DNA of 64,000 nt from Natator depressus (lineage: Eukaryota), in contig NC_134234.1 of NCBI RefSeq assembly GCF_965152275.1, positions 39,394,920 to 39,458,919 on the forward strand, given 5' to 3'. Made by a program: the position numbers and the translations under genes. Each line of letters starts with the position of its first letter. Within the stretch, counting starts at the first letter, position 1. The notes beneath the pieces are model-generated. The model did no database searches. It was given only the letters and a program-made list of their open reading frames with translations, and was not told where the DNA came from. Of this stretch, positions 683-58,980 are shown one piece after another.

Positions 683-2470
683 CTGGGTGACTTATAATGT
701 TTACAGTTCCAGATGACTGTTATCTCTCTATTTGTTTTCCAAACATGGAAACTAAGATTTAGTATGTCTCTGGAACAGGAAGCATTGGACATCCAGTGTA
801 TGATAAAATTTTGTTCACTATTTAAATCTGCAGCAGTGGCCATCTGGAAAAATGAATTTCAATTTAATCTGTTATGCAAGCAGCAGTACAACTGGCAAAG
901 TAACGTCTGTTTGGTTTGGTTGTCAACTTTAAAAAAAAAAAAAGTATTTCCAGGTATTGAAAGTTACACGTGAAAAAGGATAAAAAAAAAAGCTGTTAAA
1001 TGTACCTACAAATAATACATAAAATTGCTTACAATCCACTCAACATATTTATAAAACTGAATCCTTGTGTATTGTTCCTAATACAATAGAAACCACTTAA
1101 ACAACTACTTGCTGAGGAATACACATTATATAAAGCAAAACAAACAATGACGCTTTTAAATTTAGTATCCATTGCAATCAAGTAAATGAATAACATTCCA
1201 AACATTCCAAACGATACAGCATATATAAGCAGTGAATCAAGTAACATATTTAGAGTGATGGAGCCCTGAGATTTTTAAATAGGGTGCCCAAAAGTGGGAA
1301 GAGAAAAAAATTACTGAGGAGATGCCAAGACGACGCATTTGGCATTTATTTTAAGGCTGCGTTTAAAGTCTCTCTATCTAGATGTGGTGAATTTTACTGT
1401 GTTTCACTGAAAGTTAAACACTTAAAACCTTGCTCATTTTTTGAAAACCCTTCATTCAGAGGGTCCTAGTTTGTGTCTGCTCTTGTTCAGGGTACAACAT
1501 ATTCTTAAGCCTAAACCCTGTTAGAGCTTCTGAATTGCAATTGAATTACAAACTGTTACAACAATGGGGCAAGACAGGGACGGGCGAGTTCCCACTCGGG
1601 CACTCATATTACAACCCCGGGGGGGGGGGGCGACAGGGTTCCCCAGACTACACACGTCAAGCCTTGACAATTCCGGCCAGGGAGTTTTCCAATAGTTCTA
1701 AAGCACACAAAGCAAAAGTCCTGTTTTCATGAGAAGTCGATGCCTTTAAAAACTGTCTTTAGATGAACGTACGAAGGAGACCGTCTCCCTCTTGACAGAG
1801 AAGACTTGGCAGGTGGGACATCACATCAGTTTTGAAGCGAGTGGGCAGCAAGCCTGGCAACATTCCCCTCATACACTCAACAGTGCAGCTGCGGGGAGGG
1901 CAGAACAAACTACAGCGGCATTCGCCCTCATCACCCGCAGCATCTCCCCCACCCCAGCGCCTGGACACGGGCCGACGTGCCTCACGCCCTGACACAACCA
2001 CTGGGTGCGAGGGACTCACCACGGCACGACTGTTACAAGCGAGGGACACCCCGCCACGGGGCCCAACGCCTGCCCTGTCCCAATGGTGTGCGTACCTCAC
2101 CATCACCCCCCGTGAATAGTGGGGGGGACAGGACACAACAGCCTCCCCCCGCCAAGATCCTCGCCCCTCCCTCAACACCTGTGGGGGAGGGGGCGCGAAA
2201 GCAGCCCCTCCCAGGAGGGGACCGCCACAGCTGCTGCTGCCCCCGCCCGACAGCTCACCCCCAGCCCTGCGCACCCAGGCAGTTACTCCGCGCGACCCCC
2301 ATCCAGACACCCGCTGAGCCGAGCGCGGCCTAGGCCTAGGCCCGGCTTCCTCATGCCCTACGCACCGACAGCTCCTCGGCCCAGCGCCCCCCGCCAGCTC
2401 CCTTTACAGACCTGCCGCCATCCTGCCGCCTCCCAGCGCCACAGGAGGGACAATGCCGGGCCCGGGGTAT

Positions 2471-2548
2471 TGTGGGAGTTGTAGTCCCAACTCGACGACT
2501 TCCTCTCCGGGCTGGGAGGGAGCCTTCGGCGTTTGAACTACAGCTCCC
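2471..2548. promoter_or_regulatory. Pair of ZNF143/SBS-like motifs (gggACTACAactcccaca on minus at 2471-2488; aACTACAgcTCCCgagag on plus at 2536-2548)
   Basis: Sequence match to the ACTACAnnTCCC core typical of ZNF143 sites in bidirectional CpG-island promoters; seen directly in sequence. Confidence 0.35.
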
Positions 2549-2590
2549 GAGAGCCTCGGCCAGCAGCCGGGACGTTATTGGGCATCAATG
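2500..2590 (+). other. PARP4: Candidate non-coding first exon of PARP4 (option A): ends at CAATG|GTAAAT donor (GT at 2591-2592)
   Basis: Strong donor consensus immediately downstream of the ZNF143-like motifs within the CpG island; human PARP4 has a non-coding exon 1. Not verifiable without RNA data. Confidence 0.2.
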
Positions 2591-3155
2591 GTAAATCTCG
2601 AGCTCCCCCCCCCCACCTTCCCCAGCCTGTGGCAGTTAGAGGGCGGGACTGAATCATCAGTCGCCTCCTTCTCCCCACATTGCTCCTGCCGCCCCCGGCT
2701 CTGGCTGAGGGAGATCCCCTCCCCACCCCACCGGGCGACCCCTCCCCGCCTCCCGGGTTGGGGAGGTGACTATGAGCGACGTTGGACAGTGGGATGCTAC
2801 GTAGAGCCTGAGGCTTTTAGGGGCCGAGGCTTTCTCAGGACAGCCTACAGCATCTCAGGACTGCTGGCCAGCCACAGCCGGGGTGCTGCAGGTGCCACTG
2901 CCAGCAGCTCTGCAGTTTTGTAAAATAATCATAAACTGAGGCATGGGCCTGCCAGGGTGGTCTAGGAGGCGTTAGAGTCGCGTTGGGTGAATGTGGGCGC
3001 ATGTTACCTGCCTAGGGTGTGCGCGTGTTTGTTTAATAACAGTCTTTTGGTGTCAGTTGAACAGGGGAGGGGGAAGGGCAGGAGTAAACAAAAGGGGAAG
3101 TGTTGAGCTTTGTAAGTTTCCCATTTTAGGCAGGTCTGTGAACACTTTTGGTCTC

Positions 3156-3628
3156 CAGGTAACAAAGGTTTCAGAGTAACAGCCGTGTTAGTCTGTATTT
3201 GGAAAAAGAAAAGGAGTACTTGTGGCACCTTAGAGACTAACCAATTTATTTGAGCATAAGCTTTCGTGAGCTACAGCTCACTTCATCGGATGCGTACTGT
3301 GGAAAGTGTAGAAGATCTTTTTATACACACAAAGCATGAAAAAATACCTCCCCCCACCCCACTCTCCTGCTGGTAATAGCTTATCTAAAGTGATAACTCT
3401 CCTTACAATGTGTATGATAATCAAGTTGGGCCATTTCCAGCACAAATGCAGGTTTTCTCACCCCCCCACACACACACACTGTGTGTATAAAAAGATCTTC
3501 TACACTTTCCACAGTATGCATCCAATGAAGTGAGCTGTAGCTCACGAAAGCTTATGCTCAAATAAATGGGTTAGTCTCTAAGGTGCCACAAGTACTCCTT
3601 TTCTTTTTGCAGGTAACAAAGGCGTTAG
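3156..3628. repeat. Family-A hairpin element (head tttcagagtaacagccgtgttagtctg + ~120-bp arm / ~150-bp loop / inverted arm) flanked by 13-bp direct repeat caggtaacaaagg
   Basis: Left arm 3170-3330 and right arm 3480-3612 are near-perfect reverse complements (ggagtacttgtggcaccttagagactaacc...gagctacagctcac). An identical 13-mer sits at 3157-3169 and 3611-3623. Confidence 0.7.
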
Positions 3629-3828
3629 GTGACCAGCCCTCAGTTCCAGCAGCAGGTGACTCACCATTGTACACCCAGCAACCAGGGGTACATAACAGGC
3701 TGGGACTTGTTTCCACACCTTTGTATGAGGGGAGAGAGTGGAACAATGGGCTCCGGTTTGCACGAACTAGATGCAGCTCTTTAATTCCTTGCTAGTTGCC
3801 AGTATTGGTCGTAACCTCAGTATCTCTT

Positions 3829-4027
3829 AATTTCTTCCAGGTTTCAGAGTAGTAGCTGTGTTAGTCTGTATTAGCAAAAAGAAAAGGAGTACTTGTGGCA
3901 CCTTAGAGACTAACCAATTTATTTGAGCATAAGCTTTCGTGAGCTACAGCTCACATCATCGGATGCATTCAGTGGAAAATACAGTGGGGAGATTTATATA
4001 CATAGAGAACATGAAACAATTTCTTCC
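3829..4027. repeat. Family-A short copy (head + one arm + partial loop) flanked by 11-bp direct repeat aatttcttcca
   Basis: ggtttcagagtagtagctgtgttagtctgtatt...gagctacagctcacatcatcggatgc homologous to 3170-3330; flanking aatttcttcca at ~3829-3839 and ~4017-4027. Confidence 0.6.
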
Positions 4028-5379
4028 ATATATCCTCTAAGTGTGGTTTCCTCCAGTCTAAACAGAGGCGAAGCATAGGCAGACAGGGTCACATGGTGCC
4101 GCAGGGCCCCTCCCTGTGGAACAGCTGAGCCAGGCCTGCTTGGGGCAGGGAGCGGGAGAGGCAGAAGGGAAGGAACACTGGGAGCTGCTGCTGCTGCTTC
4201 TGCTTCAACTCTGGGGGGAAGAGACAGAGGAACATCTGGGAGCTTCACAGAAGGGCTGCTGCTTTCCAGAACGGGAAGGGCTCTCGGAAGAGTGGGGGGC
4301 TTGACTCCAGCTGTTTGGGGGTTGTGCCCCCCCCGCACACACTGTCAGCAGGCACCTGTCCATAAACCTTTCTTTATCCTTCGTTTGCAGTCTGTCTACA
4401 TCTTTTCTAAATGACTGTTCCCCATACTGCATACACTGTGCCACTGATGATGTAGTTAGCGCTGTGTAAAAGGCAAGAACTTCCACATTTACCTTATATC
4501 CTTTTTTGAAACTACTGAATTTTGGGATTCTCTATTATAAAGTTTTAAATAAATTATTGTAGTGATTTGCCTTCAGTATTTGTTTATAATGAAAACCCTG
4601 TGTGCCCGCCAAAGATTTCTCTTTGACTTCTCATCTATGCTAAAAACAAAATAAACCCCATTGCTAACAATGGCTCCAATCTTGCATTTTCATCTCAATG
4701 TCCTCATGAAATCCCATTGAGATTAATAGGGTTCTGTGGAGGCCCACTAGCATGGATTTAGATTGCAGCAGGCTTATAGCCAATGATTGTTGGCAACAGA
4801 TTCCCCTTTGCTTCGACCCTCACATGTCCCCTCATTTGCCTCATCTGGTATTGAAAACAGTTTAATACCTTTGCATAACAGTATTGGGGAAAGCTGCCTT
4901 GTCTAGCAAACAAATCCTTTTCAACTTCAGTTGATGGGTGATTGGTGTCAGACTCATTGCTGACAACCATTGTCATCAATGAGTTACTTGCATAGTGTGG
5001 ATGGACCCTTATTGTGAAGCTTTGCAGCTCCAAAAAATGAAGGCAAACCCTTCATTAAAATTCGTCAAAGAGCACAAGCTAAATTCAGATCCTATATCAG
5101 GTAAAAATACCTGGTCATATTAGACTGATTTTGGAAATCTGTGTGTGGAAGTAAAATGCAAACCCTTTTGTGTTAATCCTTAATAGCAAACTGATCCCTA
5201 AATAAAGGTGCCTGATTGGAATAGGACATAGTTGGCTGATGAGTGACACTATTATGCTTTTATTATATCTATAAAACTAATACAACAAACATGTATTTGG
5301 GTCACTAGCCAGGGGTAGGATTTTGCTGTCTGTATTGAAGTCTCTCCCTATGGGGATGGGTGGAGAAGAGTCTGTCATA

Positions 5380-8504: not shown

Positions 8505-11336
8505 CTAAATCATCCCAGCCAGGGCTTTGTCAAGCCTGACCTTAAAAACTTCTCGGGAAGGAGATTCCACCACCTCCCTAGGTAACGCATTCCAGTGTTT
8601 CACCACCCGCATAACGAAAAAGTTTTTCCTAATATCCAACCTAAATCTCCCCCACTGCAACTTGAGACCATTACTCCTTGTTCTGTCATCTGCTACCACT
8701 GAGAACAGTCTAGATCCATCCTCTTTGGAACCCCCTTTCAGGTAGTTGAAAGCAGCTATCAAATCCCCCCTCATTCTTCTCTTCCGTAGACTAAACATCC
8801 CCGGTTCCCTCAGCCTCTCCTCATAAGTCATGTGTTCCAGTCCCCTAATCATTTTTGTTGCCCTCCGCTGGACTCTTTCCAATTTTTCCACATCCTTCTT
8901 GTAGTGTGGGGCCCAAAACTGGATACAGTACTCCAGATGAGGCCTCACCAATGTCGAATAGAGGGGAACGATCATGTCCCTCGATCTGCTGGCAATGCCC
9001 CTACTTATACATCCCAAAATGCCATTGGCCTTCTTGGCAATAAGGGCACACTGTTGACTCATATCCATCTTCTTGTCCACTGTAACCCCTAGGTCCTTTT
9101 CTGCAGAACTGCTGCCTAGCCATTCGGTCCCTAGTCTGTAGCGGTGCATGGGATTCTTCCGTCCTAAGTGCAGGACTCTGCATTTGTCCTTGCTGAACCT
9201 CATCAGATTTCTTTTGGCCCAATCCTCTAATTTGTCTAGGTCCCTCTGTATCCTATCCCTACCCTCCAGAGTATCTACCGCTCCTCCCAGTTTAGTGTCA
9301 TCTGCAAACTTGCTGAGGGTGCAATCCACACCATCCTCAAGATCATTTAATGAAGATATTGAACAAAACCAGCCCCAGGACCGACTCTTGGGGCACTCTG
9401 TTTGATACCGGCTGCCAACTAGACATGGAGCCATTGATCACTACCCGTTGAGCCCCACAATCTAGCCAGCTTTCTATCCACCTTATAGCCCATTCATCCA
9501 GCCCAGACTTCTTTAATTTACTGTCAAGAATACTGTGGGAGACCGTGTCAAAAGCTTTGCTAAAGTCAAGGAACAACACGTCCACTGCTTTCCCCTCATC
9601 CACAGAGCCAGTTATCTCGTCATAGAAGGCGATTAGATTAGTCAGGCATGCCTTGCCCTTGGTGAATCCATGCTGACTGTTCCTCATCACTTTCCTCTCC
9701 TCTAAGTGCTTCAGAATTGATTCCTTGAGGACCTGCTCCATGATTTTTCCAGGGACTGAGGTGAGGCTGACTGGCCTGTAGTTCCCAGGATCCTCCTTCT
9801 TCCCTTTTTTAAAGATGGGCACTACATTAGCCTTTTTCCTGTCGTCCGGGACCTCCCCCGATCGTCATGAGTTTTCAAAGATAATGGCCAATGGCTCTGC
9901 AATCACATCCGCCAACTCCTTTAGCACTCTCAGATGCAACGCATCCGGCCCCATGGACTTGTGCTCGTCCAGCTTTTCTAAATAGTCCCGAACCACTTCT
10001 TTCTTCACAGAGGGCTGGTCACCTCCTCCCCATGCTGTGCTGCCCAGTGCAGCAGTCTGGGAGCTGACCTAGTTCGTGAAGACAGTACACTGGCTTTTTC
10101 CACATCCTCTGTCACTAGGTTGCCTCCCCCATTCAGTAAGGGGCCCACGCTTTCCTTGACCACCTTCTTGTTGCTAACATACCTGAAGAAACCCTTCTTG
10201 TTACTCTTAACATCTCTTGCTAGCTGCAACTCCAGGTGTGATTTGGCCTTCCTGATTTCACTCCTGCATGCCCGAGCAATATTTTTATACTCTTCCCTGG
10301 TCATTTGTCCAATCTTCCACTTCTTGTAAGCTTCTTTTTTGAGTTTAAGATCAGCAAGGATTTCACTGTTCAGCCAAGCTGGTCACCTGCCATATTTACT
10401 ATTCTTTCTACACATCGGGATGGTTTGTTCCTGTAACCTCAGTAAGGATTCTTTAAAATACAGCCAGCTCTCCTGGACTCCTTTCCCCCTCATGTTATTC
10501 TCCCAGGGGATCCTGCCCATCAGTTCCCTGGGGGAGTCGAAGTCTGCTTTCCTGAAGTCCAGGGTCCGTATTCTGCTGCTCTCCTTTCTTCCCTGTGTCA
10601 GGATCCTGAACTCGACCATCTCATGGTCATTGCCTCCCAGGTTCCCATCCACTTTTGCTTCCCCTACTAATTCTTCCCGGTTTGTGAGCAGCAGGTCAAA
10701 AAGAGCTCTGCCCCTAGTTGGTTCCTCCAGCACTTGCACCAGGAAATTGTCCCCTACCCTTTCCAAAAACTTCCTGGATTGTCTGTGCACCGCTGTATTG
10801 CTCTCCCAGCAGATATCAGGGTGATTGAAGTCTCCCATGAGAACCAGAGCCTGCGATCTAGTAACTTCCATGAGTTGCCGGAAGAAAGCCTCGTCCATCT
10901 CATCCCCCTGGTCCGGTGGTCTATAGCAGACTCCCACCACGACATCACCCTTGTTGCTCACGCTTCTAAACTTAATCCAGAGATACTCAGGTTTTTCTGC
11001 AGTTTCATACCGGAGCTCTGAGCAGTCATACTGCTCTCTTACATACAATGCAACTCCCCCACCTTTTCTGCCCTGCCTGTCCTTCCTGAACAGTTTATAT
11101 CCATCCATGACAGTACTCCAGTCATGTGAGTTATCCCACCAAGTCTCTGTTATTCCAATCACATCATAATTCCTTGACTGTGCCAGGACTTCCATTTCTC
11201 CCTGCTTGTTTCCCAGGCTTCGTGCATTTGTGTGTAGGCACTTGAGATAGCGTGCTGTTTGTCCTGCTTTCTTAGTATAAGGCAGAAGCCCTCCCCTTTC
11301 GCGCTCTCCTGCTTGTGCTTCCTCCCGGTATCCCAC
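8505..11336 (-). pseudogene. CR1 ORF2 (endonuclease-RT), interrupted by one in-frame stop (~10380) and two frameshifts
   Basis: Four ORF pieces in three frames: 10383-11336 (frame 0), 10005-10304 (frame 0, after a stop), 9343-9822 (frame 1), 8505-9434 (frame 0). Confidence 0.75.
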
Positions 11337-11563
11337 GTCCCCACTTACCTCAGGGCTTTGGTCTTCTTCCCCCGGTGAACCTAGTTTAAAGCCCTCCTCA
11401 CTAGGTTAGCCAGCCTGCTTACGAAGATGCTCTTCCCTCTCTTCGTTAGGTGGAGCCCGTCTCTGCCTAGCACTCCTCCTTCTTGGAACACCATCCCATG
11501 GTCAAAGAATCCAAAGTCTTCTCTCTGACACCACCTGCGTAGTCATTCGTTGGCTTCCATGAT

Positions 11564-12392
11564 TCAACGATCTCTACCCAGGCCTTTTCCTTCCACGGGG
11601 AGGATGGACGAGAACACCACTTGCGCCTCAAACTCCTTTATCCTTCTTCCCAGAGACATGTAGTCTGCAGTGATCCGCTCGAGGTCATTCTTGGCAGTAT
11701 CATTGGTGCCCATGTGGAGAAGCAGGAAGGGGTAGCGATCCGAGGGCTTCATGAGTCTCGGCATTCTCTCCATCACATCGTGAATCCTAGCTCCTGGCAA
11801 GCAGCAGACTTCTCGGTTTTCCCGGTCAGGGTGGCAGATAGATGACTCAGTCCCCCTGAGGAGAGAGTCCCGCACCACCACCACCCGCCTCCTCCTCTTG
11901 GGAGCGGTGGTCATGGAACCCCCATCCCTAGGACTGTGCATCTCATGCCTTCCAATCGGCAGAGTCTCCTTCTGTTCCCTTCCCTCAGATGTATCATCCA
12001 GTCCACTCTCCGCATTAGTACCTATGGAGAGAGCATGAAAATGGTTGCTTACCTGTATCTGCACTGCTGGTACATGGACGCTCCCCTTTCTTCTTCTGGA
12101 GGTCACATGCTGCCAGATTTCTTCACCGTCCTCCTGTCCCCGCTGCGCAGCCTGCTCTGAATCTTCAGAACATTGTGCCCGTAGAAGCATATCCTGACGT
12201 CTGGTCCAGGAAATCTTCAGTTTCTCTTATGGAACGCAGAGTCGATACTTGTTTCTCCAGACCTTGAACCTTCTCTTCCAATATGGAGACCAGCTTGCAC
12301 TTTGTACAGACAAAGTCACTTTTGTCCTGTGGAAGAAAGACAAACATGGCACATCCAGTGCAGGACACAACAGCTGAACGCTCCCCATCCAT
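11564..12392 (-). pseudogene. CR1 ORF1 (N-terminal C-rich/coiled-coil segment + SGNH/esterase-like domain), split by one frameshift
   Basis: 12165-12392 MDGERSAVVSCTGCAMFVFLPQDKSDFVCTKCK... and 11564-12190 ...LLLHMGTNDTAKNDLERITADYMSLGRRIKEFEAQVVFSSILPV are in different frames. Confidence 0.7.
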
Positions 12393-12840: not shown

Positions 12841-14300
12841 CCCCCCCAGTCATCTTTTCTCCAGACTAAACAAACCCAATTTTTTCAATCTTTCCTCATG
12901 GGTCATGTTTTCTAGACCTTTAATAATTTTCGTTGCTCTCCTCTTTACTTTCTTTAGTTTGTCCACATCTTTACTGAAATGTGGCACCCAGAACTGGACG
13001 CAATAGTCCAGAAGAGGCATTATTAGCACAGAGTAGAGGGTAAGAATTACTTCTCGTATCTTGCTTACAACACTCCTGCTAATATACCCCCAGAATGATG
13101 TTTGCTTTTTTTGCAACAGTGTTACACTGTTGACTCATATTTAGCTTGTGATCCACTATGACCCCCAGATCCCTTTCCGCAGTACTCCTTCCTAAGCAGT
13201 CATTTCCCATTTTGTATGTGTTCCTTCCTAAGTGGAGTACTTTGCATTTGTCCTTATTGTATTTCATCCTGTTTACTTCAGACCATTTCTCCAATTTGTC
13301 CAGATCATTTTCAATTTTAATCCTATCCTCCAAAGCACTTGCAACCCCTTCCAGCTTGGTATCATCTGCAAACTTTATAATCGTATTCTCTATGCCATTG
13401 TCTAAATCATTTATGAAGATATTGAACAGAACTGGACTCAGGACTGATTCTTGCGGGACCTACTCGATATGCCCTTCCAGCTTGATTGTGAACCACTGAT
13501 AACTACTCTCTGGTAACAGTTTTTCAACCACTTATGCACTCACCATATAGTAGCTCCATCTAGGCCAGTGGTGGGCAATCTGTGGCCTGTCACAGTAATA
13601 CACTGGTGGGCCACAAGACAGTTTATTTACATTGACCATCCACAGGCATGGCCATCCACAGCTCCCAGTGGCCATGGTTCGCCATTCCCGGCCAATGAGA
13701 GCTGCGGGAAGCAGCGTGGGCCACAGCGGATTATCCTGATGGGCTGCAGGTTGCCCACCACTGATCTAGGCTATATTCCACTAGTTTGTTTATGAAAAGA
13801 TATGCCACATCTACTGCTTCCCCCATCCACAAGGCTTGCTGCCCTGTCAAAGAAAGCTATTATGTTGGTTTGACACAATTTGTTCTTGACAAATGCTCAT
13901 TGACTGTTACTTATCACCTTACTATCTTCTAGATGTTTGCGAATGATTGCTTGATTATTCATTCCATTATCTTTCCAGGTACTTGAAGTTAAGCTGACTG
14001 GTCTGTAATTCTCCAGGTTGTCCTTATTCCTCTTTTTATAGATTGATACTATATTTGCCCTCTTCCAGTCCTCTGGAATCTCTTCCATCTGCCATGAGTT
14101 TTCAAAGATAATTACTAATGGCTCAGATATCTCCTCAGTCAGCTCCTTGAGTATTCTATGATGTATTTCATCAGGCTCTGGTGACTTGAATATATCTAAC
14201 TTGTCTAAGTAATTTTTAACTTGTTCTTTCTGTATTTTAGCCTCAGAATTGACATCATTTTCACTGGCATTCACTATGTTGTTTACTAATAGGAAATTAG
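12841..14300 (-). mobile_element. Older, diverged 5'-truncated CR1 (RT region), 5' portion of the CR1 split by the nested insertion; itself interrupted by a MITE at 13560-13765
   Basis: ORFs 13897-14274 (...NYRPVSLTS...), 13079-13333 (...KDKCKVLHLGRN...), 12850-13116 (...LDYCVQFWVPHFSKDVDKLKKVKRRATK...LFSLEKR). It stops exactly where the fragment at 8109-8424 would continue. Confidence 0.7.
13560..13765. repeat. Family-B MITE (TIR ccagtggtgggcaa ... ttgcccaccactg)
   Basis: Terminal inverted repeats and internal ccaatg / cattgg boxes seen directly; inserted inside the older CR1. Confidence 0.6.
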
Positions 14301-14383
14301 TATTGAGTAAACGAACTAGTAAACTGCAGTAGTTACCTATTTTTGCATCTGCATAATGGCTGTGATTTTAACCTCGTTTTTAG

Positions 14384-14579
14384 TGTACACATGTCATTGT
14401 GGATAATGTTGCTGTACTCAGCTCTTATCATCTGAAAACTATTGAGAAGTATCGACTCCCCATTGTAAGTGCTGATTTTGTATGGAAATCAGCAGAAGAA
14501 AGAAAACTTTTACAGATTGATGACTATGAGTCTAGTAAATCATTGGAAGGTACTTCTGATCAAAAGCCAAGCTGTTACG
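14384..14579 (+). CDS. PARP4: PARP4 coding exon 2 (BRCT domain)
   Basis: Acceptor ttttAG|TGT; donor TAC G|GTAAGT (GT 14580-14581). CTHVIVDNVAVLSSYHLKTIEKYRLPIVSADFVWKSAEERKLLQIDDYESSKSLEGTSDQKPSCY vs human CTHIILDNADVLSQYQLNSIQKNHVHIANPDFIWKSIREKRLL. Ends phase 1. Confidence 0.85.
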
Positions 14580-16504: not shown

Positions 16505-16790
16505 AGCAAAAAGAAAAGGAGTACTTGTGGCACCTTAGAGACTAACAAATTTATTTGAGCATGAGCTTTCATGAGCTACAGCTCACTTCATCGGATGCAT
16601 GTAGTGGAAAATACAGTGGGGAGATTTTATATACACAGAGAACATGAAACAATGGGTGTTACCATACAGACTGTAACAAGAGTGATCAGGTAAGGTGAGC
16701 TATTACCAGCAGGAGAGCGGGGGGTTGGGGGGGAACCTTTTGTAATGATAATCAAAGTGGGCCATTTCCAGCAGTTGACAAGAACGTGTG
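16505..16790. repeat. Family-A element copy (arm + extended loop segment)
   Basis: aaaaagaaaaggagtacttgtggcaccttagagactaacaaatttatttgagcatgagctttcatgagctacagctcacttcatcggatgc...ttaccagcaggagagcgggg matches 3190-3330 and the loop of 45545-45995. Confidence 0.6.
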
Positions 16791-17284
16791 ACGAAAATCT
16801 CTACGCCAATTTGATTGGACTTACAAAGGAGTTAAACTCTAAAATACAGTTACCTGAGGTATCACTAGGGAGTGTAGACTCAGCAAGATAATGTGCAGTT
16901 ATTTATATTAAAGGTTGTTTTTTCCATTTCTAATCTTTGAAAAGAAATCTCACTACCTCTTATCCTCCTAACCCTGGGAGGGGGAAGAGTCCTTTCCATA
17001 TGTCTAGTCCAGGCATCAGTTGCACTTCGGATTCTGCAGCTTCTTGTGTTAGGTTCAATCTACGCTCTCGAGCACATGGTGACCTCAGTTTTATGTACTC
17101 TAGCTTCAGGTCTCGTTGGAGGAGGCCACTCTCTGATTCTTGTTGGGCATGTGCCAAATGGGTGCTGAGATTTCAGCTCTTAGTGTCTTTTCTACTTCCA
17201 CTGGTACCCAGGAGATGGCGATGGTGTATAACAAATTTCCTTAATCTTTTTTATATCAGAGGCTTTTAAAATTTGATTCATTTC

Positions 17285-28359: not shown

Positions 28360-29150
28360 TGTCAAGGTTCCTTCCCCACTCTGAACTCTAGGGTACAGAT
28401 GTGGGGACCTGCATGAAAACCTCCTAAGCTTACTTTTACCAGCTTAGGTTAAAACTTCCCCAAGGTACAAACTATTTTACCCTTTGCCCTTGGACTTCCA
28501 CTGCCACCACCAAACGTTTATCTGGGTTTATTTTTATTAGGAAAGCGTTGTTTGGAAATGTCTTTCCCCCCAAAATCCTCCCAACCGTTGCACCCCACTT
28601 CCTGGGGAAGGTTTGGTAAAAATCCTCACCAATTTGCATAGGTGACCACAGACCCAAACCCTTGACTCTTAAGAATAATGAAAAAACATTCAGTTTCTGA
28701 AAAGAAGGATTTTAATAGAAGTAAAAAGAATCACCTCTGTAAAATCAGGATGGTAAGTACCTTACAGGGTAATTACATTCAAAACATAGAGAATCCCTCT
28801 AGGCAAAACCTTAAGTTACAAAAAGGCACACAGACAGGAATATCCATTCTATTCAACACAACTTAATTTCTCAGCCATTTAAAGAAAGTAATCTAACGCA
28901 TATCTAGCTAGATTACTTTCTAAGTTCTAAGACTCCATTCCTGTTCTGTCCCCGGCAAAAGCATCACACAGACAGACCCTTTGTTTTTCCCTCCCCCCAG
29001 CTTTTGAAAGTATCTTGTCTCCTCATCGGTCATTTTGGTCAAGTGCCAGCGAGGTTATCCTAGCTTCTTAACCCTTTACAGGTGAGAGGATTTTTCCTCT
29101 GGCCAGGAGGAATTTTAAAGGGGTTTACCCTTCCCTTTATATTTATGACA
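28360..29150. mobile_element. Solo LTR (TGTCAAGG...TTATGACA) with perfect 5-bp TSD ggagt
   Basis: TG...CA termini; ggagt at 28355-28359 and 29151-29155; paralogous copy at 53182-54109. Confidence 0.7.
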
Positions 29151-29599
29151 GGAGTCCAATAAAATAGATACAGTCCAATGCCCTCAAAAAAGAAAGGGTC
29201 TTCAGCCCACCTCCGGACTCCTGTGGCTGGCACAGTCTTGACTCAAGGCTTACAATATCTCTGTACTCTCCTCCTCTCCAAGGTTGGGGGGGAGAAAGGG
29301 ATTTATGCCCCTCCACACAAAGGGCAGTTGGTAGGGGAGCCAAGCCCTTTCTCTCCACCAGGCTCTGACCTAGGACCCCTATGAGAGGCAGTGATAGCAT
29401 ATACCCTCTTCAGGACTGCCTCCCTAAGCCACTTCCTATCACTTGCTTCCCCAGTCCAAGGTTTGGTCAAATGTCTCATTAAGTGATCCTCCAGAAGCTA
29501 GAGCAAAACATTCTCTACTCTTAGGGAATGGCTAGCTCTTCCTTTAGGGCCTGGGGTAACTGCTGCTAGCAGAACTACTCTTGCAGCCAGGACCAAGGT

Positions 29600-38107: not shown

Positions 38108-38314
38108 AAAAGTGACATATTTCAGAGTAGCAGCCGTGTTAGTCTGTATCCTCAAAAAGAAAAGGAGTACTTGTGGCACCTTGGAGGCTAACAAATTTAT
38201 TTGAGCATAAGCTTTCGTGAGCTACAGCTGTAGCTCACAAAAGCTTATGCTCAAATAAATTTGTTAGTCTCTAAGGTGCCACAAGTCCTCCTTTTCTTTT
38301 TAAAAGTGACATAG
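38108..38314. repeat. Family-A spacerless palindrome (two ~85-bp arms meeting at gagctacagc|tgtagctc) flanked by 12-bp direct repeat aaaagtgacata
   Basis: 38120-38210 and 38211-38300 are reverse complements. aaaagtgacata at 38108-38119 and 38303-38314. Confidence 0.7.
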
Positions 38315-45544: not shown

Positions 45545-45995
45545 CCAGTGTAGCCATGCCCTCGTGTGTGGTTTTTGGAGGGGGGTGAGGGGGTGAGAGA
45601 ACCTGGATTCCTGCAGGAAATGGCCCACCTTGATTATCATACACATTGTGAAGAGAGTGGTCACTTTGGATGGGCTATTACCAGCAAGAGAGTGAGTTTG
45701 TCTGTGGGGGGGCGGAGGGTGAGAAAACCTGGATTTGTGCTGGAAATGGCCCATCTTGATGATCACTTTAGATAAGCTATTACCAGCAGGAGAGTGGGGT
45801 GGGAGGAGGTATTGTTTCATGGTGTCTGTGTATATAATAATGTCTTCTGCAATTTCCACAGTATGCATCCGATGAAGTGAGCTGTAGCTCACGAAAGCTC
45901 ATGCTCAAATAAATTGGTTAGTCTCTAAGGTGCCACAAGTCCTCCTTTTCTTTTTGCGAATACAGACTAACACGGCTGTTACTCTGAAACCTTTC
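45545..45995. repeat. Family-A element copy (inverse orientation; duplicated loop unit + one arm + head)
   Basis: Ends ...ggtgccacaagtcctccttttctttttgcgaatacagactaacacggctgttactctgaaacc. Loop units ggaaatggcccaccttgat...ttaccagcaagagag repeated twice. Confidence 0.6.
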
Positions 45996-53181: not shown

Positions 53182-54109
53182 TGTCAAGGTTCCTCCCCCA
53201 CTCTGAACTCTAGGGTACAGATGTGGGGACCTGCATGAAAAACCTCCTAAGCTTATCTTTACCAGCTTAGGTCAAAACTTCCCCAAGGTACAAAATATTC
53301 CACCCTTTGTCCTTGGATTGGCCGCTACCACCACCAAACTAATACTGGTTACTGGGGAAGAGCTATCTGGACACGTCTTTCCCCCCAAAATACTTCCCAA
53401 AACCTTGCACCCCACTTCCTGGACAAGGTTTGGTAAAAAGCCTCACCAATTTGCCTAGGTGACTACAGACCCAGACCCTTGGATTTTAAGAACAATGAAC
53501 AATCCTCCCAACACTTGCACCCCCCCTTTCCTGGGAAATGTTGGATAAAAAGCCTCACCAATTTGCATAGGTGACCACAGACCCAAACCCTTGGATCTGA
53601 GAACAATGAAAAAGCATTCAGTTTTCTTACAAGAAGACTTTTAATAAAAATAGAAGTAAATAGAAATAAAGAAATCCCCCCTGTAAAATCAGGATGGTAG
53701 ATACCTTACAGGGTAATTAGATTCAAAACATAGAGAACCCCTCTAGGCAAAACCTTAAGTTACAAAAAAGATACACAGACAGAAATAGTTATTCTATTCA
53801 GCACAGTTCTTTTCTCAGCCATTTAAAGAAATCATAATCTAACACGTACCTAGCTAGATTACTTACTAAAAGTTCTAAGACTCCATTCCTGGTCTATCCC
53901 CGGCAAAGACAGAATATAGACAGACACACAGACCCTTTGTTTCTCTCCCTCCTCCCAGCTTTTGAAAGTATCTTGTCTCCTCATTGGTCATTTTGGTCAG
54001 GTGCCAGCGAGGTTACCTTTAGCTTCTTAACCCTTTACAGGTGAGAGGAGCTTTCCCCTGGCCAGGAGGGATTTCAAAGGGGTTTACCCTTCCCTTTATA
54101 TTTATGACA
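53182..54109. mobile_element. Solo LTR (second copy; TGTCAAGG...TTATGACA) with perfect 5-bp TSD acatg; contains an internal ~130-bp tandem duplication
   Basis: acatg at 53177-53181 and 54110-54114; co-linear with 28360-29150. Confidence 0.7.
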
Positions 54110-56779: not shown

Positions 56780-58980
56780 GCCCCAGTCCTGCAAACAAGC
56801 ACACACAAGCTTAAATTGACAAAGTGGAGAGGCCATGGCTTATGTACTCCAAAACCCAGAATGCTGCATACTGTTTTTGTTGCAAACTCTTCCAGTCTAA
56901 TATTCCAGCCACATTGGGTTCTACAGGAACAAAGGACTGTAAAAGTCTGGCTAGAAATCTGGCATGCCATGAGAAGGCAGCAAATCACCAGAGAGCATTC
57001 CATAGGTGGAAAGAGCTTGAGATGAGATTAAGGTTAAAGGCCATCGTAGATGATCAGCATCAAGAGAAGATTGCATCAGAGTCTCTTTACTGGCAAAATG
57101 TTCTGAAAAGGCTCATTGCCACTGTGAGAATGCTTGCTACCCAAAAGCGAGCACTGCATTGCACTTCAGATCAGCTGTTTGTGCCAAATAATGGAAACTT
57201 CCTTAAAATTGTGGAGCTGATGGCTGAGTTTGATGCTGTACTCCAGGAGCATCTAAGAAGAGTCACCACCCGAGAAATGTACACACACCACTACCTTGGA
57301 AAAACAGTTCAAAATGAGATCATACAGTTACTGGCAACAAAAGTCAAACAGAACATTGTGGAAGATCTGAAGTCAGCAAGATATTACTCTATTATTCTGG
57401 AATGACACCTGACATCAGCCATATGGAACAAATGACTTTAATGGTGTGTTTTGTAACAACAACAGAACCTGGTGAAAATGTCCCTGCAGTGGTGACTGTC
57501 AGAGCATTTTCTAGAATTTATTGACATTGATGATACTACAGGAGCTGCTATGACAAATGTTCTTCTCAAAAAACTGGAAGATACAGGAATTGCGATAGCT
57601 GACATGAGAGGTCAGGGCTACGATAATGGTGCCAACATGAGAGGAAAGAACAGAGGAGTGCAGACACGGATCCGAGAGCTAAACCCTCAAGCTCTTTTTT
57701 GTCCCATGCAGTTCTCATTCATAGAACTTGGTGGTCAGTGATGCAACATCAGCTTCTAGTGAGGCTGCTGAATTTTTTAATGTAATTCCAAGCATCTATG
57801 TATTTTTCTCTGCATCAACTCATCGATGGCAAATTTTGAAGCGACATCTAGGAACATCCTCTCTGACACTGAAACCACTGAGTGCCACACAATGGGAAAG
57901 TTGAGTGGAGGCGATAAAGCCTATCAAACACCAAATTGGGAAGATAGATGATGCCCTCGTTGCCATTATGGAAGATAATGCTATGACAGGAACTGTTCAT
58001 GGGAGAACAGTGGCAGATGGAAATGGAATCACCAGAAACATACATAACTTCAAATTTGTGTGGCTTAGTGTTGTGGCATGACGTACTGTTTGAAATAAAT
58101 GTTGTAAGCAAGAGGCTCCAGGGTGTTGACCTTGATCTATCTGGAGCAATAGAACAACTGGACAAAGCAAAGTCATACCTACAGTCTTACCGGTCAGATG
58201 AGGGACTTCAAAACGTTCTGAAGAGTGCACAGAAGTTGGCAGAGGAACTTCACACTGAAGCTATTTTCCCACCCATTCAAGAATACAAGAGCCACTGAAG
58301 AAGACGACACTTTGATTATGAGGCACGAGATAATCCCATAAGAGACCTCAAACAACAATTCAAAGTTGAATTCTTTAACCAGGTGCTAGATTGTGCAATA
58401 CAGTCAGCTGAAGAACGTTTCATGCAGCTCAACGAACACAGCAGTATATTTGGGATGTTGTATGATACTCCAAAACTCCTCACTATACCTGAAGAAGACC
58501 TACACCAGCAATGCAGGGCACTAGAGACAGTGTTGACACATGATGACATGCGCGATATTGATGCGAGTGATTTAGGTGATGAACTGAAAGCCCTTTCAAG
58601 ATATATTTCAGCAGGATCAACTCCAAAGGCTGTTCTGGAATATATATGCACAAATAAGATGACCACCCTCTTTCCAAATGCTTTTGTTGCTCTGCGCATA
58701 CTTCTAACACTTCCTGTAACAGTTGCCAGTGGAGAACCCAGTTTCTCCAAGCTAAAGTTAATAAAAACACTTCTACGCTCCACAATGACACAGGAGCGGC
58801 TGGTCGTCCTTGCAACCATCTCAATAGAGCATGAGCTGGCCCAGACTATGGACCTTCAGCAGTTCAAACTTTGCAACCACGAAGCCACGGAAAGCACCAC
58901 TTTGATTATTCAAACAGATAAAGATGCCAGTGTTTACTATGCAGACAAGAAAAGTTACATGTGCTGTTCAGGCATTTGAA
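56780..58980 (+). mobile_element. hAT-superfamily transposase relic (family 2; TTF-type zinc finger + DDE core + hAT C-terminal dimerisation domain), multiple stops/frameshifts
   Basis: ORFs 56824-57405 (CFCCKLF...TTF-type finger), 57550-57741 (GQGYDNGANMRGKNRGVQTRIREL), 57999-58298, 58383-58979 (...LFPNAFVALRILLTLPVTVASGEPSFSKLKLIKTLLRSTMTQERLVVLATISIEHE, hAT dimerisation motif). Confidence 0.7.

What the first reader, a model, noticed from the sequence alone, without database searches (positions are those of the whole stretch)
3156..4027. Family-A hairpin repeats flanked by 11-13 bp perfect direct repeats (TSD-like) - unclassified element with retroposon-like target duplications
Three copies show different perfect flanking duplications: caggtaacaaagg (13 bp, 3157/3611), aatttcttcca (11 bp, 3829/4017) and aaaagtgacata (12 bp, 38108/38303). 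Variable 11-13 bp TSDs are atypical for cut-and-paste DNA transposons and more like LINE-mediated insertion. Yet the elements have no poly(A) or CR1 tail. They consist of a 34-bp head (tttcagagtaacagccgtgttagtctgtat) followed by long inverted arms. Copies range from spacerless palindromes to arm-loop-arm forms, which suggests a template capable of fold-back. Further copies are at 16505 and 45545.
Basis: seen in the sequence. Interest (0 to 1): 0.5.

Follow-up and report, generated by a model that had tools for sequence, protein, structure and literature searches.

The report
Truncated Penelope-like retroelement copies in turtle DNA
The hairpin repeats with 11-13 bp flanking duplications are real, but they are ordinary dead, 5'-truncated copies of a turtle Penelope-like retrotransposon, a known element class whose insertions typically form inverted pairs with a short extra "tail" at one end.

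Summary
The window has five insertions of one repeat family. Three have perfect flanking duplications of 13, 11 and 12 bp, about 1 nt off the stated coordinates.

The "unclassified" label does not hold. In turtle loci fetched here, the same ~370-nt sequence lies directly downstream of an ORF. That ORF encodes a reverse transcriptase (about 34% identical to Anolis Poseidon_Ac, E 3e-58) followed by a GIY-YIG endonuclease. Family A is therefore the 3' UTR/pseudo-LTR of a Penelope-like element (PLE).

- variable target-site duplications (8-13 bp here);
- heavy 5' truncation;
- head-to-head inverted 5'-truncated copies with their 3' ends facing outward;

Across 22 arms, 3' ends fall into two classes about 34 nt apart. 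All four complete inverted pairs carry the tail on one arm only. A Chrysemys picta pair has arms of 0.9 and 2.4 kb, the longer carrying the RT-EN coding region. It shows the same layout, with 99.8% identical arms and a 12-bp duplication.

One minor oddity: the hammerhead-like motif has C instead of U at core position 4.

The parts
3156..3168 (.). Left target-site duplication of insertion A (caggtaacaaagg)
   Evidence: Exact 13-nt repeat abutting both element ends. The last 5 nt (aaagg) also match the template sequence that follows the tail in other copies.
3169..3475 (-). Insertion A, left arm: 5'-truncated PLE 3' UTR in minus orientation. Its 3' end carries the 33-nt tail at 3169-3201.
   Evidence: Matches positions 3738-4053 of the L001 RT-EN element at 86%. 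Tail found.
3479..3609 (+). Insertion A, right arm: shorter 5'-truncated copy in plus orientation, ending at the tail-less 3' site (...ccttttctttttg)
   Evidence: Matches reference 3888-4019 at 94%. Arms are 97.0% identical over 132 nt.
3610..3622 (.). Right target-site duplication of insertion A
3254..3293 (-). Hammerhead-like minimal motif in the left arm of A (helix I 4 bp, core CCGAUGA, bulged A, helix II 6 bp, GAA, palindromic AGCU, U). A second copy lies at 3518-3557 (+) in the right arm.
   Evidence: Alignments A1/A2 and pair counts. No Rfam hit.
3829..3839 (.). Left target-site duplication of insertion B (aatttcttcca)
3840..4017 (-). Insertion B: solo 5'-truncated copy with tail (GG + tttcagag...) and no inverted partner
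   Evidence: Reference 3875-4053 at 89.5%. Sequence.
4018..4028 (.). Right target-site duplication of insertion B
16506..16800 (-). Insertion D: solo copy ending at the tail-less 3' site. The inner (5') end is approximate and no clear duplication was found. It carries a ~100-bp internal module inverted relative to the L001 reference.
   Evidence: Extent judged against L001 15191-15559 and L002 7976-8615.
38108..38119 (.). Left target-site duplication of insertion C (aaaagtgacata)
38120..38227 (-). Insertion C, left arm with tail
38228..38301 (+). Insertion C, right arm without tail. The arms join inside the native hairpin GTGAGC-TGTA-GCTCAC, with the self-complementary AGCT at the junction.
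   Evidence: Arms are 94.7% identical.
38302..38313 (.). Right target-site duplication of insertion C
45564..45991 (+). Insertion E: solo plus-strand copy with tail at its right end and an internal ~125-bp tandem duplication. It may read on past the tail to about 46013. The 5' end is approximate and there is no clear duplication.
   Evidence: It is 94% identical to L003 11500-11915. The sequence after the tail resembles the pLTR-ORF junction of L005.

Best explanation
**What it is.** Family A is the 3' untranslated region, equivalent to the pseudo-LTR, of a turtle Penelope-like retrotransposon. The element's single ORF encodes a reverse transcriptase followed by a C-terminal GIY-YIG endonuclease. 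A CX4CX2C linker between the two domains suggests the Neptune or Nematis type. The five window copies are dead-on-arrival, heavily 5'-truncated insertions containing only the last 75-430 nt of the element.

**Shown here.**
- The repeat is collinear with the 3' end of RT-EN copies.
- 3' ends fall into two discrete classes about 34 nt apart.
- In inverted pairs the 3' ends always face outward and only one arm has the tail.
- Duplications are 8-13 bp and AT-rich.

**Taken from published PLE biochemistry and inferred for these copies.**
- The endonuclease makes staggered nicks a variable distance apart, which gives the variable duplication length.
- Reverse transcription starts internally on the RNA at either of two neighbouring sites, which gives copies with or without the tail.
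- Both nicked strands can prime cDNA synthesis. Two converging, incompletely extended cDNAs are then joined head to head.
- Equal truncation at a native hairpin gives a spacerless palindrome. Unequal truncation gives the 'arm-loop-arm' look.
For: **Taxon.** Peptides translated from the repeat hit only sea-turtle proteins.

**Link to an RT-EN ORF.**
- L001 (Natator) 13300->10825 on the minus strand encodes an RT about 34% identical to Poseidon_Ac aa 240-644 (E 3e-58).
- Pfam finds RVT_1 (E 1e-10) and GIY-YIG (E 8e-5, above its cutoff).
- The endonuclease shows VIY..CQQC..YIG plus a CNKARCQLC linker.
- The stop codon is followed at once by Family A, which ends in the tail at L001 10448.
- L002 16971-19004 is a second such copy, 80% identical.

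**Kilobase-scale copies with the same layout.**
- L006 (Chrysemys picta) is an inverted pair with arms of 0.9 and 2.4 kb, the longer carrying the RT-EN coding region. The arms are 99.8% identical, the duplication is 12 bp (attcactacata), and the tail is on one arm only.
- L005 and protein P0007 show the tail lying about 10 nt upstream of the ORF start, in a partial tandem.

**3' ends.** Thirteen arms end at reference positions 4051-4053 or beyond. Eight end at about 4013-4019, and one at 4000.

**Duplications versus chance.**

**Literature.**
- Variable duplications, 5' truncation, adjacent inverted truncated copies and a 30-40 bp tail at one end are described for PLEs (PMC8557442).
- Two internal RT start sites define the tail, both target strands are cleaved and extended, and targets are AT-rich (PMC11167929).
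- RepeatMasker counts 139,606 Penelope fragments with a mean of about 215 bp in Testudo graeca (PMC11315351).
Against: - No RT or EN coding sequence of this element lies inside the window. The link rests on homologous copies in other turtle genomes.
- No Dfam or Repbase comparison was possible, so the family name is unknown.
- Two of the five window copies (D, E) and several fetched copies show no clear duplication. Their 5' ends are only approximately defined.
- The hammerhead motif expected in PLE pseudo-LTRs deviates at a normally invariant core base, and Rfam does not detect it.
- Double-strand priming is inferred from an in vitro study of a lizard PLE, not shown for this element.
Confidence: 0.93

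Rival explanations
1. The short copies are a distinct non-autonomous family. Small pseudo-LTR-only RNAs, like animal non-LTR retrozymes, would be mobilised in trans by PLE proteins. They would not be 5'-truncated products of autonomous elements.
For: - Window copy E and L003 11500-11915 are 94% identical. They share an internal duplication and nearly the same 5' end.
- A 2026 preprint argues that vertebrate retrozymes derive from PLE pseudo-LTRs.
Against: - 5' ends form a continuum at reference positions 1621, 1885, 3123, 3354, 3666, 3738, 3875, 3925, 3942 and 3971. This runs from 2.4 kb copies with ORF down to 83 nt, as expected from random truncation.
- The E-type 3' UTR is itself joined to an ORF start in L005.
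- No head-to-tail tandem arrays were seen in about 220 kb.
Confidence: 0.15
2. The inverted arms arise by snap-back or template switching of a single cDNA, which folds back and copies itself. Priming from both target strands would not be needed.
For: - The palindrome of insertion C is centred on a native hairpin.
- L003 10866-11024 and L003 11500-11950 carry short (21-25 nt) inverted internal pieces at their 5' junctions. These look like brief self-priming.
Against: - A cDNA copying itself back to the target should reproduce the tail on both arms.
- In 4 of 4 complete pairs the second arm stops at or before the alternative tail-less site. In 3 of the 4 it stops at that site; the fourth stops earlier, at reference 4000.
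- The lizard PLE protein extends both target strands in vitro.
Confidence: 0.2
3. Family A is a foldback or MITE-type DNA transposon whose terminal inverted repeats are the arms.
For: Long inverted arms with flanking direct repeats in insertions A and C.
Against: - Solo single-arm copies also carry duplications (B).
- Duplication length varies from 8 to 13 bp.
- The termini are asymmetric, with a tail on one side only.
- The same sequence is the 3' UTR of an RT-EN ORF.
Confidence: 0.01
4. Family A is a SINE mobilised by the CR1/L2-type LINE present in the window, which was the reader's LINE-mediated idea.
For: - A LINE with an AP-endonuclease and RT lies at 8.5-12.2 kb.
- Variable duplications fit target-primed reverse transcription.
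Against: - The 3' end of Family A is shared with the PLE, not with a LINE.
- There is no poly(A) or microsatellite tail.
- The copies show inverted-pair and tail signatures that the PLE literature says LINEs do not produce.
Confidence: 0.02

Closest known systems
Endonuclease-positive Penelope-like elements with C-terminal GIY-YIG (Neptune/Nematis type; compare Poseidon_Ac of Anolis carolinensis)
   Same: [quoted passage not shown]
- A CX2-5CxxC-type linker.
- Pseudo-LTR and partial tandem organisation.
- Adjacent inverted 5'-truncated copies.
- An optional 30-40 bp tail at one end.
- Variable, AT-rich target duplications.
- A hammerhead-like motif upstream of the RT start sites.
   Different: - Only about 34% RT identity to Poseidon_Ac.
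- The ORF start lies about 10 nt downstream of the tail. In Poseidon_Ac the RT start sites lie 111-118 nt inside the ORF.
- The hammerhead core reads CCGANGA instead of CUGANGA.
- Clade assignment rests on the linker motif only. No phylogeny was made.
Minimal hammerhead ribozymes of metazoan PLE pseudo-LTRs (Cervera and de la Pena 2014)
   Same: - Short helix I (4 bp) and long helix II (6 bp).
- An unpaired base between A9 and 10.1, and a G10.1-C11.1 pair.
- No helix III, only a palindromic 15.2-16.2 (AGCU), which implies dimeric action.
- Often found as two motifs on opposite strands 100-700 bp apart.
   Different: - Core position 4 is C in 14 of 18 copies. The four with U sit at a CpG and may be decay products.
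- No Rfam hammerhead model scores it.
- Self-cleavage is untested.
Animal non-LTR retrozymes (tandem hammerhead repeats derived from PLE pseudo-LTRs)
   Same: Derived from the same pseudo-LTR region and contain the hammerhead-type motif.
   Different: The copies here are dispersed or inverted, carry target duplications and grade into ORF-bearing copies. No tandem monomer arrays were seen.
L1 twin priming (5' inversion of LINE insertions)
   Same: Two priming events at one staggered break give an insertion with an internal orientation switch and a target duplication.
   Different: Twin priming (from my own knowledge) inverts a different, more 5' part of the element, so no palindrome results. 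Here both arms are the same 3' terminal sequence.

Membership tests
Penelope-like elements (EN+) | PLE-type reverse transcriptase in the element that carries the repeat | tested here: met
   L001 and L002 copies match Poseidon_Ac aa 240-644 (about 34% identity, E 3e-58). Pfam finds RVT_1. Relatives carry the same domain set in many turtles and invertebrate PLEs. This was not found inside the window itself.
Penelope-like elements (EN+) | [quoted passage not shown] | tested here: met
   Pfam GIY-YIG scores 23.3 bits against a cutoff of 22.6. The sequence reads VIYAFMCQQCPFAMYIGQT...H...H.
Penelope-like elements (EN+) | [quoted passage not shown] | tested here: met
   3' ends fall into two classes 33-36 nt apart, with 13 arms in one and 8 in the other. 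All 4 complete inverted pairs have the tail on one arm only.
Penelope-like elements (EN+) | Inverted 5'-truncated copy adjacent to the insertion, giving inverted-repeat structures | tested here: met
   Window insertions A and C, plus L001 20356-, L004 10800-11964 and L006 4821-8054.
Penelope-like elements (EN+) | Partial tandem forming a pseudo-LTR | tested here: met
   In L005, an upstream 3' UTR copy with tail runs into the ORF N-terminus. Protein P0007 reads ...AVTLKPVIMQGTAFSRMEWKS... across the junction. No such tandem was seen in the window.
Penelope-like elements (EN+) | Target-site duplications of variable length | tested here: met
   Lengths are 13, 11 and 12 bp in the window, and 10-13, 12 and 8-10 bp in fetched loci. 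Seven other copies show no clear duplication and one (L002-e) only an imperfect ~12-bp repeat.
Penelope-like elements (EN+) | Hammerhead ribozyme motif in the pseudo-LTR | tested here: inconclusive
   The architecture and all core bases except U4 are present. N7 and H17 vary as the ribozyme rules allow, and helix II shows compensatory changes. No Rfam hit was found, and cleavage is not testable here.
Neptune/Nematis clades of PLEs | CX2-5CxxC zinc-finger-like linker between RT and EN | tested here: met
   CNKARCQLC lies about 30 aa upstream of the GIY motif in L001, P0009, P0011 and P0015. The criterion comes from PMC8557442. No phylogeny was made.
Hammerhead ribozyme (canonical core) | Core C3-U4-G5-A6-N7-G8-A9 ... 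G12-A13-A14 | tested here: not met
   Position 4 is C in 14 of 18 aligned copies, including diverged lineages. All other core positions fit.
Animal non-LTR retrozymes | Head-to-tail tandem arrays of short hammerhead-bearing monomers | tested here: not met
   BLAST maps of about 220 kb show dispersed or inverted copies only.
MITE / foldback DNA transposons | Symmetric terminal inverted repeats with a duplication of fixed length | tested here: not met
   Solo arms carry duplications, the duplications vary from 8 to 13 bp, and the termini are asymmetric.
LINE-dependent SINEs | 3' end shared with a partner LINE, or a poly(A)/simple-repeat tail | tested here: not met
   The 3' end is shared with the RT/GIY-YIG element and there is no A-rich tail.

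The most novel reading that the evidence does not exclude
The hammerhead-like motif of this turtle PLE lineage keeps C at core position 4, which is normally an invariant U. It does so across sublineages whose helix II has changed by compensatory substitutions, and whose free positions (N7, H17) vary. This suggests RNA-level selection on a non-canonical core. The motif could be a naturally active U4C hammerhead variant working as a dimer. It could also be a former ribozyme retained as a structural signal for the PLE protein, close to the reverse-transcription start sites.
Probability: 0.2. Interest if true: 0.35.

Novelty: already known. Interest (0 to 1): 0.13.

Why it matters
Mostly housekeeping. 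These copies should be masked as LINE/Penelope, not treated as a new element class. The hairpins should not be mistaken for miRNA precursors or foldback transposons.

The copies do give a clean small-scale illustration of the PLE insertion signature. That signature was recently explained in vitro by two internal RT start sites and extension of both target strands.

The consistent one-tail-per-pair pattern and the C4 hammerhead-like core are small leads for people working on the PLE mechanism.

Tried and rejected
- **Rfam.** Scans of the whole window at gathering thresholds, of 3100-4100 at E<=10, and of a related copy with a CUGAUGA core found no hammerhead. They returned only sub-threshold miRNA-precursor-like hits caused by the hairpin.
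- **Literature search by sequence.** Full-text search for six sequence strings of the repeat found nothing.
- **RNA folding.** The 162-nt 3' end folds no better than shuffled sequence (z -0.26).
- **RT/EN in the window.** The long ORFs belong to a CR1/L2-like LINE and a hAT fragment, not a PLE. tblastn with Poseidon_Ac found nothing in the window.
- **Missing duplications.** None was found for window copies D and E, or for L001-b, L002-a, -b, -c, -d and L003-b. No second copy of the 3' flank of the long L001 copy was found.
- **Lookups.** Two contig lookups (P0001, P0004) returned nothing.
- **Rejected readings.** The MITE and SINE readings were considered and rejected as set out under rival explanations.

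Full report
**Observation**

The window is vertebrate DNA. It contains a CR1/L2-like LINE and a hAT fragment. One repeat family occurs five times:

| Copy | Coordinates | Form |
|---|---|---|
| A | 3169-3609 | two inverted arms |
| B | 3840-4017 | single arm |
| C | 38120-38301 | perfect palindrome |
| D | 16506 to about 16800 | single arm |
| E | about 45564-45991 | single arm, opposite orientation |

A, B and C are flanked by exact direct repeats of 13, 11 and 12 bp that abut the element ends. In 5000 random window pairs from the same DNA, a shared word of at least 11 nt appeared in about 0.2% of trials. It appeared in 4 of the 14 insertion units examined, and a 15th unit added a 12-bp word.

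**What the repeat is**

Peptides translated from the repeat matched only sea-turtle proteins. In most of these, another gene's or TE's reading frame simply runs into the repeat. I fetched the corresponding loci and two more: L001-L006, from Natator, Chelonia, Eretmochelys, Caretta, Lepidochelys and Chrysemys. I searched them with the Anolis Poseidon_Ac protein, taken from the supplement of PMC11167929.

In L001 and L002 the repeat lies directly downstream of, and in the same orientation as, a PLE reading frame:
- The RT is about 34% identical to Poseidon_Ac residues 240-644 (E 3e-58), and Pfam finds RVT_1.
- A GIY-YIG endonuclease follows, above the Pfam cutoff. It has the cysteine pair between its GIY and YIG motifs and a CNKARCQLC linker.
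- The two ORF-bearing copies are 80% identical over 2.1 kb, including this 3' region.

A search with the RT found close relatives in many turtle genera. Locus L005 and predicted protein P0007 show the repeat running through its last bases (…AVTLKP) into the ORF N-terminus about 10 nt later. This is the partial-tandem pseudo-LTR arrangement. Family A is therefore the 3' UTR/pseudo-LTR of a turtle Penelope-like element. The window copies are 5'-truncated fragments of it.

**The odd features are PLE hallmarks**

The literature describes PLE insertions as follows:
- They are heavily 5'-truncated and often have an inverted 5'-truncated copy immediately adjacent.
- They have variable target duplications.
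- They carry a 30-40 bp tail at only one end (PMC8557442).
- The tail corresponds to the stretch between two internal RT start sites. The Anolis protein cleaves and extends both target strands and prefers AT-rich targets (PMC11167929).

The data here agree on each point:
- **3' ends.** Of 22 arms in the window and loci, 13 end at reference positions 4051-4053 or a few bases further. Eight end at about 4013-4019, and one at 4000.
- **Inverted pairs.** In every pair the 3' ends face outward. In all four complete pairs only one arm has the tail.
- **A kilobase-scale example.** The Chrysemys pair L006 has arms of 0.9 and 2.4 kb, the longer carrying the RT-EN coding region. The arms are 99.8% identical, the duplication is 12 bp, and one arm has the tail.
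- **Arm similarity.** The arms of A are 97% identical to each other, closer than either is to other copies. This fits a single insertion event.
- **The forms.** The 'loop' of A is just the excess length of the longer arm. The palindrome of C joins two arms inside the element's own hairpin, at a self-complementary AGCT.
- **Target composition.** The six clear duplications are about 75% A+T by my count from the sequences.
- **Abundance.** Turtle genome papers report Penelope fragments as very abundant and short, with 139,606 copies of mean length about 215 bp in Testudo graeca. They are among the main repeat classes in Mauremys. This matches five copies in 64 kb.

**Mechanism**

*Shown:*
- collinearity of the repeat with the RT-EN element;
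- the two classes of 3' end;
- outward-facing 3' ends in inverted pairs;
- variable duplications.

*Inferred from the published biochemistry:*
- Staggered nicks by the GIY-YIG endonuclease set the duplication length.
- cDNA synthesis starts at either of two internal RNA sites, in a region where the tail pairs with upstream sequence (GGUUAGUCU/AGACUAAC).
- When both nicks prime synthesis, two truncated cDNAs meet and are joined head to head.

A snap-back alternative is less likely for the main pairs, because self-copying should reproduce the tail on both arms. Short inverted pieces of 21-25 nt at the 5' junctions of two L003 copies suggest snap-back does sometimes happen.

**Hammerhead motif**

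PLE pseudo-LTRs normally carry minimal hammerheads (PMC4209133). The turtle sequence GCAU-CCGAUGA-A-GUGAGC-UGUA-GCUCAC-GAA-AGCU-U/AUGC has the same layout as those motifs, and as the motif I located in the Poseidon_Ac sequence:
- a 4-bp helix I;
- a bulged base after A9;
- a 6-bp helix II beginning with a G-C pair;
- a palindromic 15.2-16.2;
- no helix III.

In 18 aligned copies, every core base except position 4 is conserved. N7 varies (U, C, A) and the cleavage-site base varies (U, C), as the ribozyme rules allow. Helix II shows compensatory changes in two diverged lineages, with 99.4% of cells paired against at most 51% when the partners are slid.

Position 4 is C in 14 of 18 copies. No Rfam model detects the motif. 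I therefore call it hammerhead-like and leave its activity open.

**Verdict**

The element is an ordinary member of a known class, so novelty is low.

Residual uncertainties:
- the exact family name, since Dfam and Repbase were unavailable;
- the clade, where the linker motif suggests Neptune or Nematis;
- the unclear 5' ends and missing duplications of copies D and E;
- whether some short copies were mobilised in trans.

Noticed in passing
window 8505-12190 (-): A decayed LINE with an AP-type endonuclease (Exo_endo_phos) and RVT_1 domains in consecutive ORFs, in a stretch with strongly negative GC skew. Probably CR1/L2-like.
   Followed up: partly
window 58383-58979 (+): An ORF with a hAT family C-terminal dimerisation domain (Pfam E 9e-11). 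This is a hAT transposase remnant.
   Followed up: no
window 28989-29170 and 53947-54109; L004 10934-11081; L001 about 14200-14390: Another interspersed repeat family, 69-73% identical between copies. In L004 a copy of about 915 bp is nested inside a PLE inverted pair. It was not identified.
   Followed up: no
window 16659-16755; L001 15366-15464; L002 8119-8212: In one subfamily of the PLE 3' UTR (copy D type), a ~100-bp internal module lies in the opposite orientation to the L001 reference. This is an internal inversion within the UTR.
   Followed up: partly
L003 11004-11024 and L003 11916-11940: Short inverted pieces (21-25 nt) of the element's own sequence sit at the 5' junction of two insertions. 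They look like brief self-priming of the cDNA.
   Followed up: partly
window 3156-3168 / 3169; L006 4813-4821: The target bases next to the tail sometimes match the template sequence that follows the tail (ccttt..., tatg). This hints at microhomology between target and RNA at the priming site. The published lizard PLE initiates without homology.
   Followed up: partly
window 3169-4017; L003 10866-11950; L002 33319-34597: Independent PLE insertions lie within 0.2-1.1 kb of each other in three places. This may reflect the reported affinity of the PLE endonuclease for PLE sequence. The sample is small and biased by how the loci were chosen.
   Followed up: no
proteins P0035-P0039, P0092: Several turtle gene models (zinc-finger proteins, TANGO2, MVB12B isoforms) include PLE RT sequence. 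This is likely annotation contamination by these elements, or possibly exonisation.
   Followed up: no
L003 10951-11029: The inverted-repeat copy draws sub-threshold Rfam hits to many miRNA precursor families (best 33 bits against a gathering score of 70). This is a generic hairpin effect, not evidence of a miRNA.
   Followed up: yes
window 2000-3100 and 4040-4300: GC-rich stretches (about 55% GC, with many CpGs) flank insertions A and B. They may be a CpG island or gene 5' region and were not examined.
   Followed up: no
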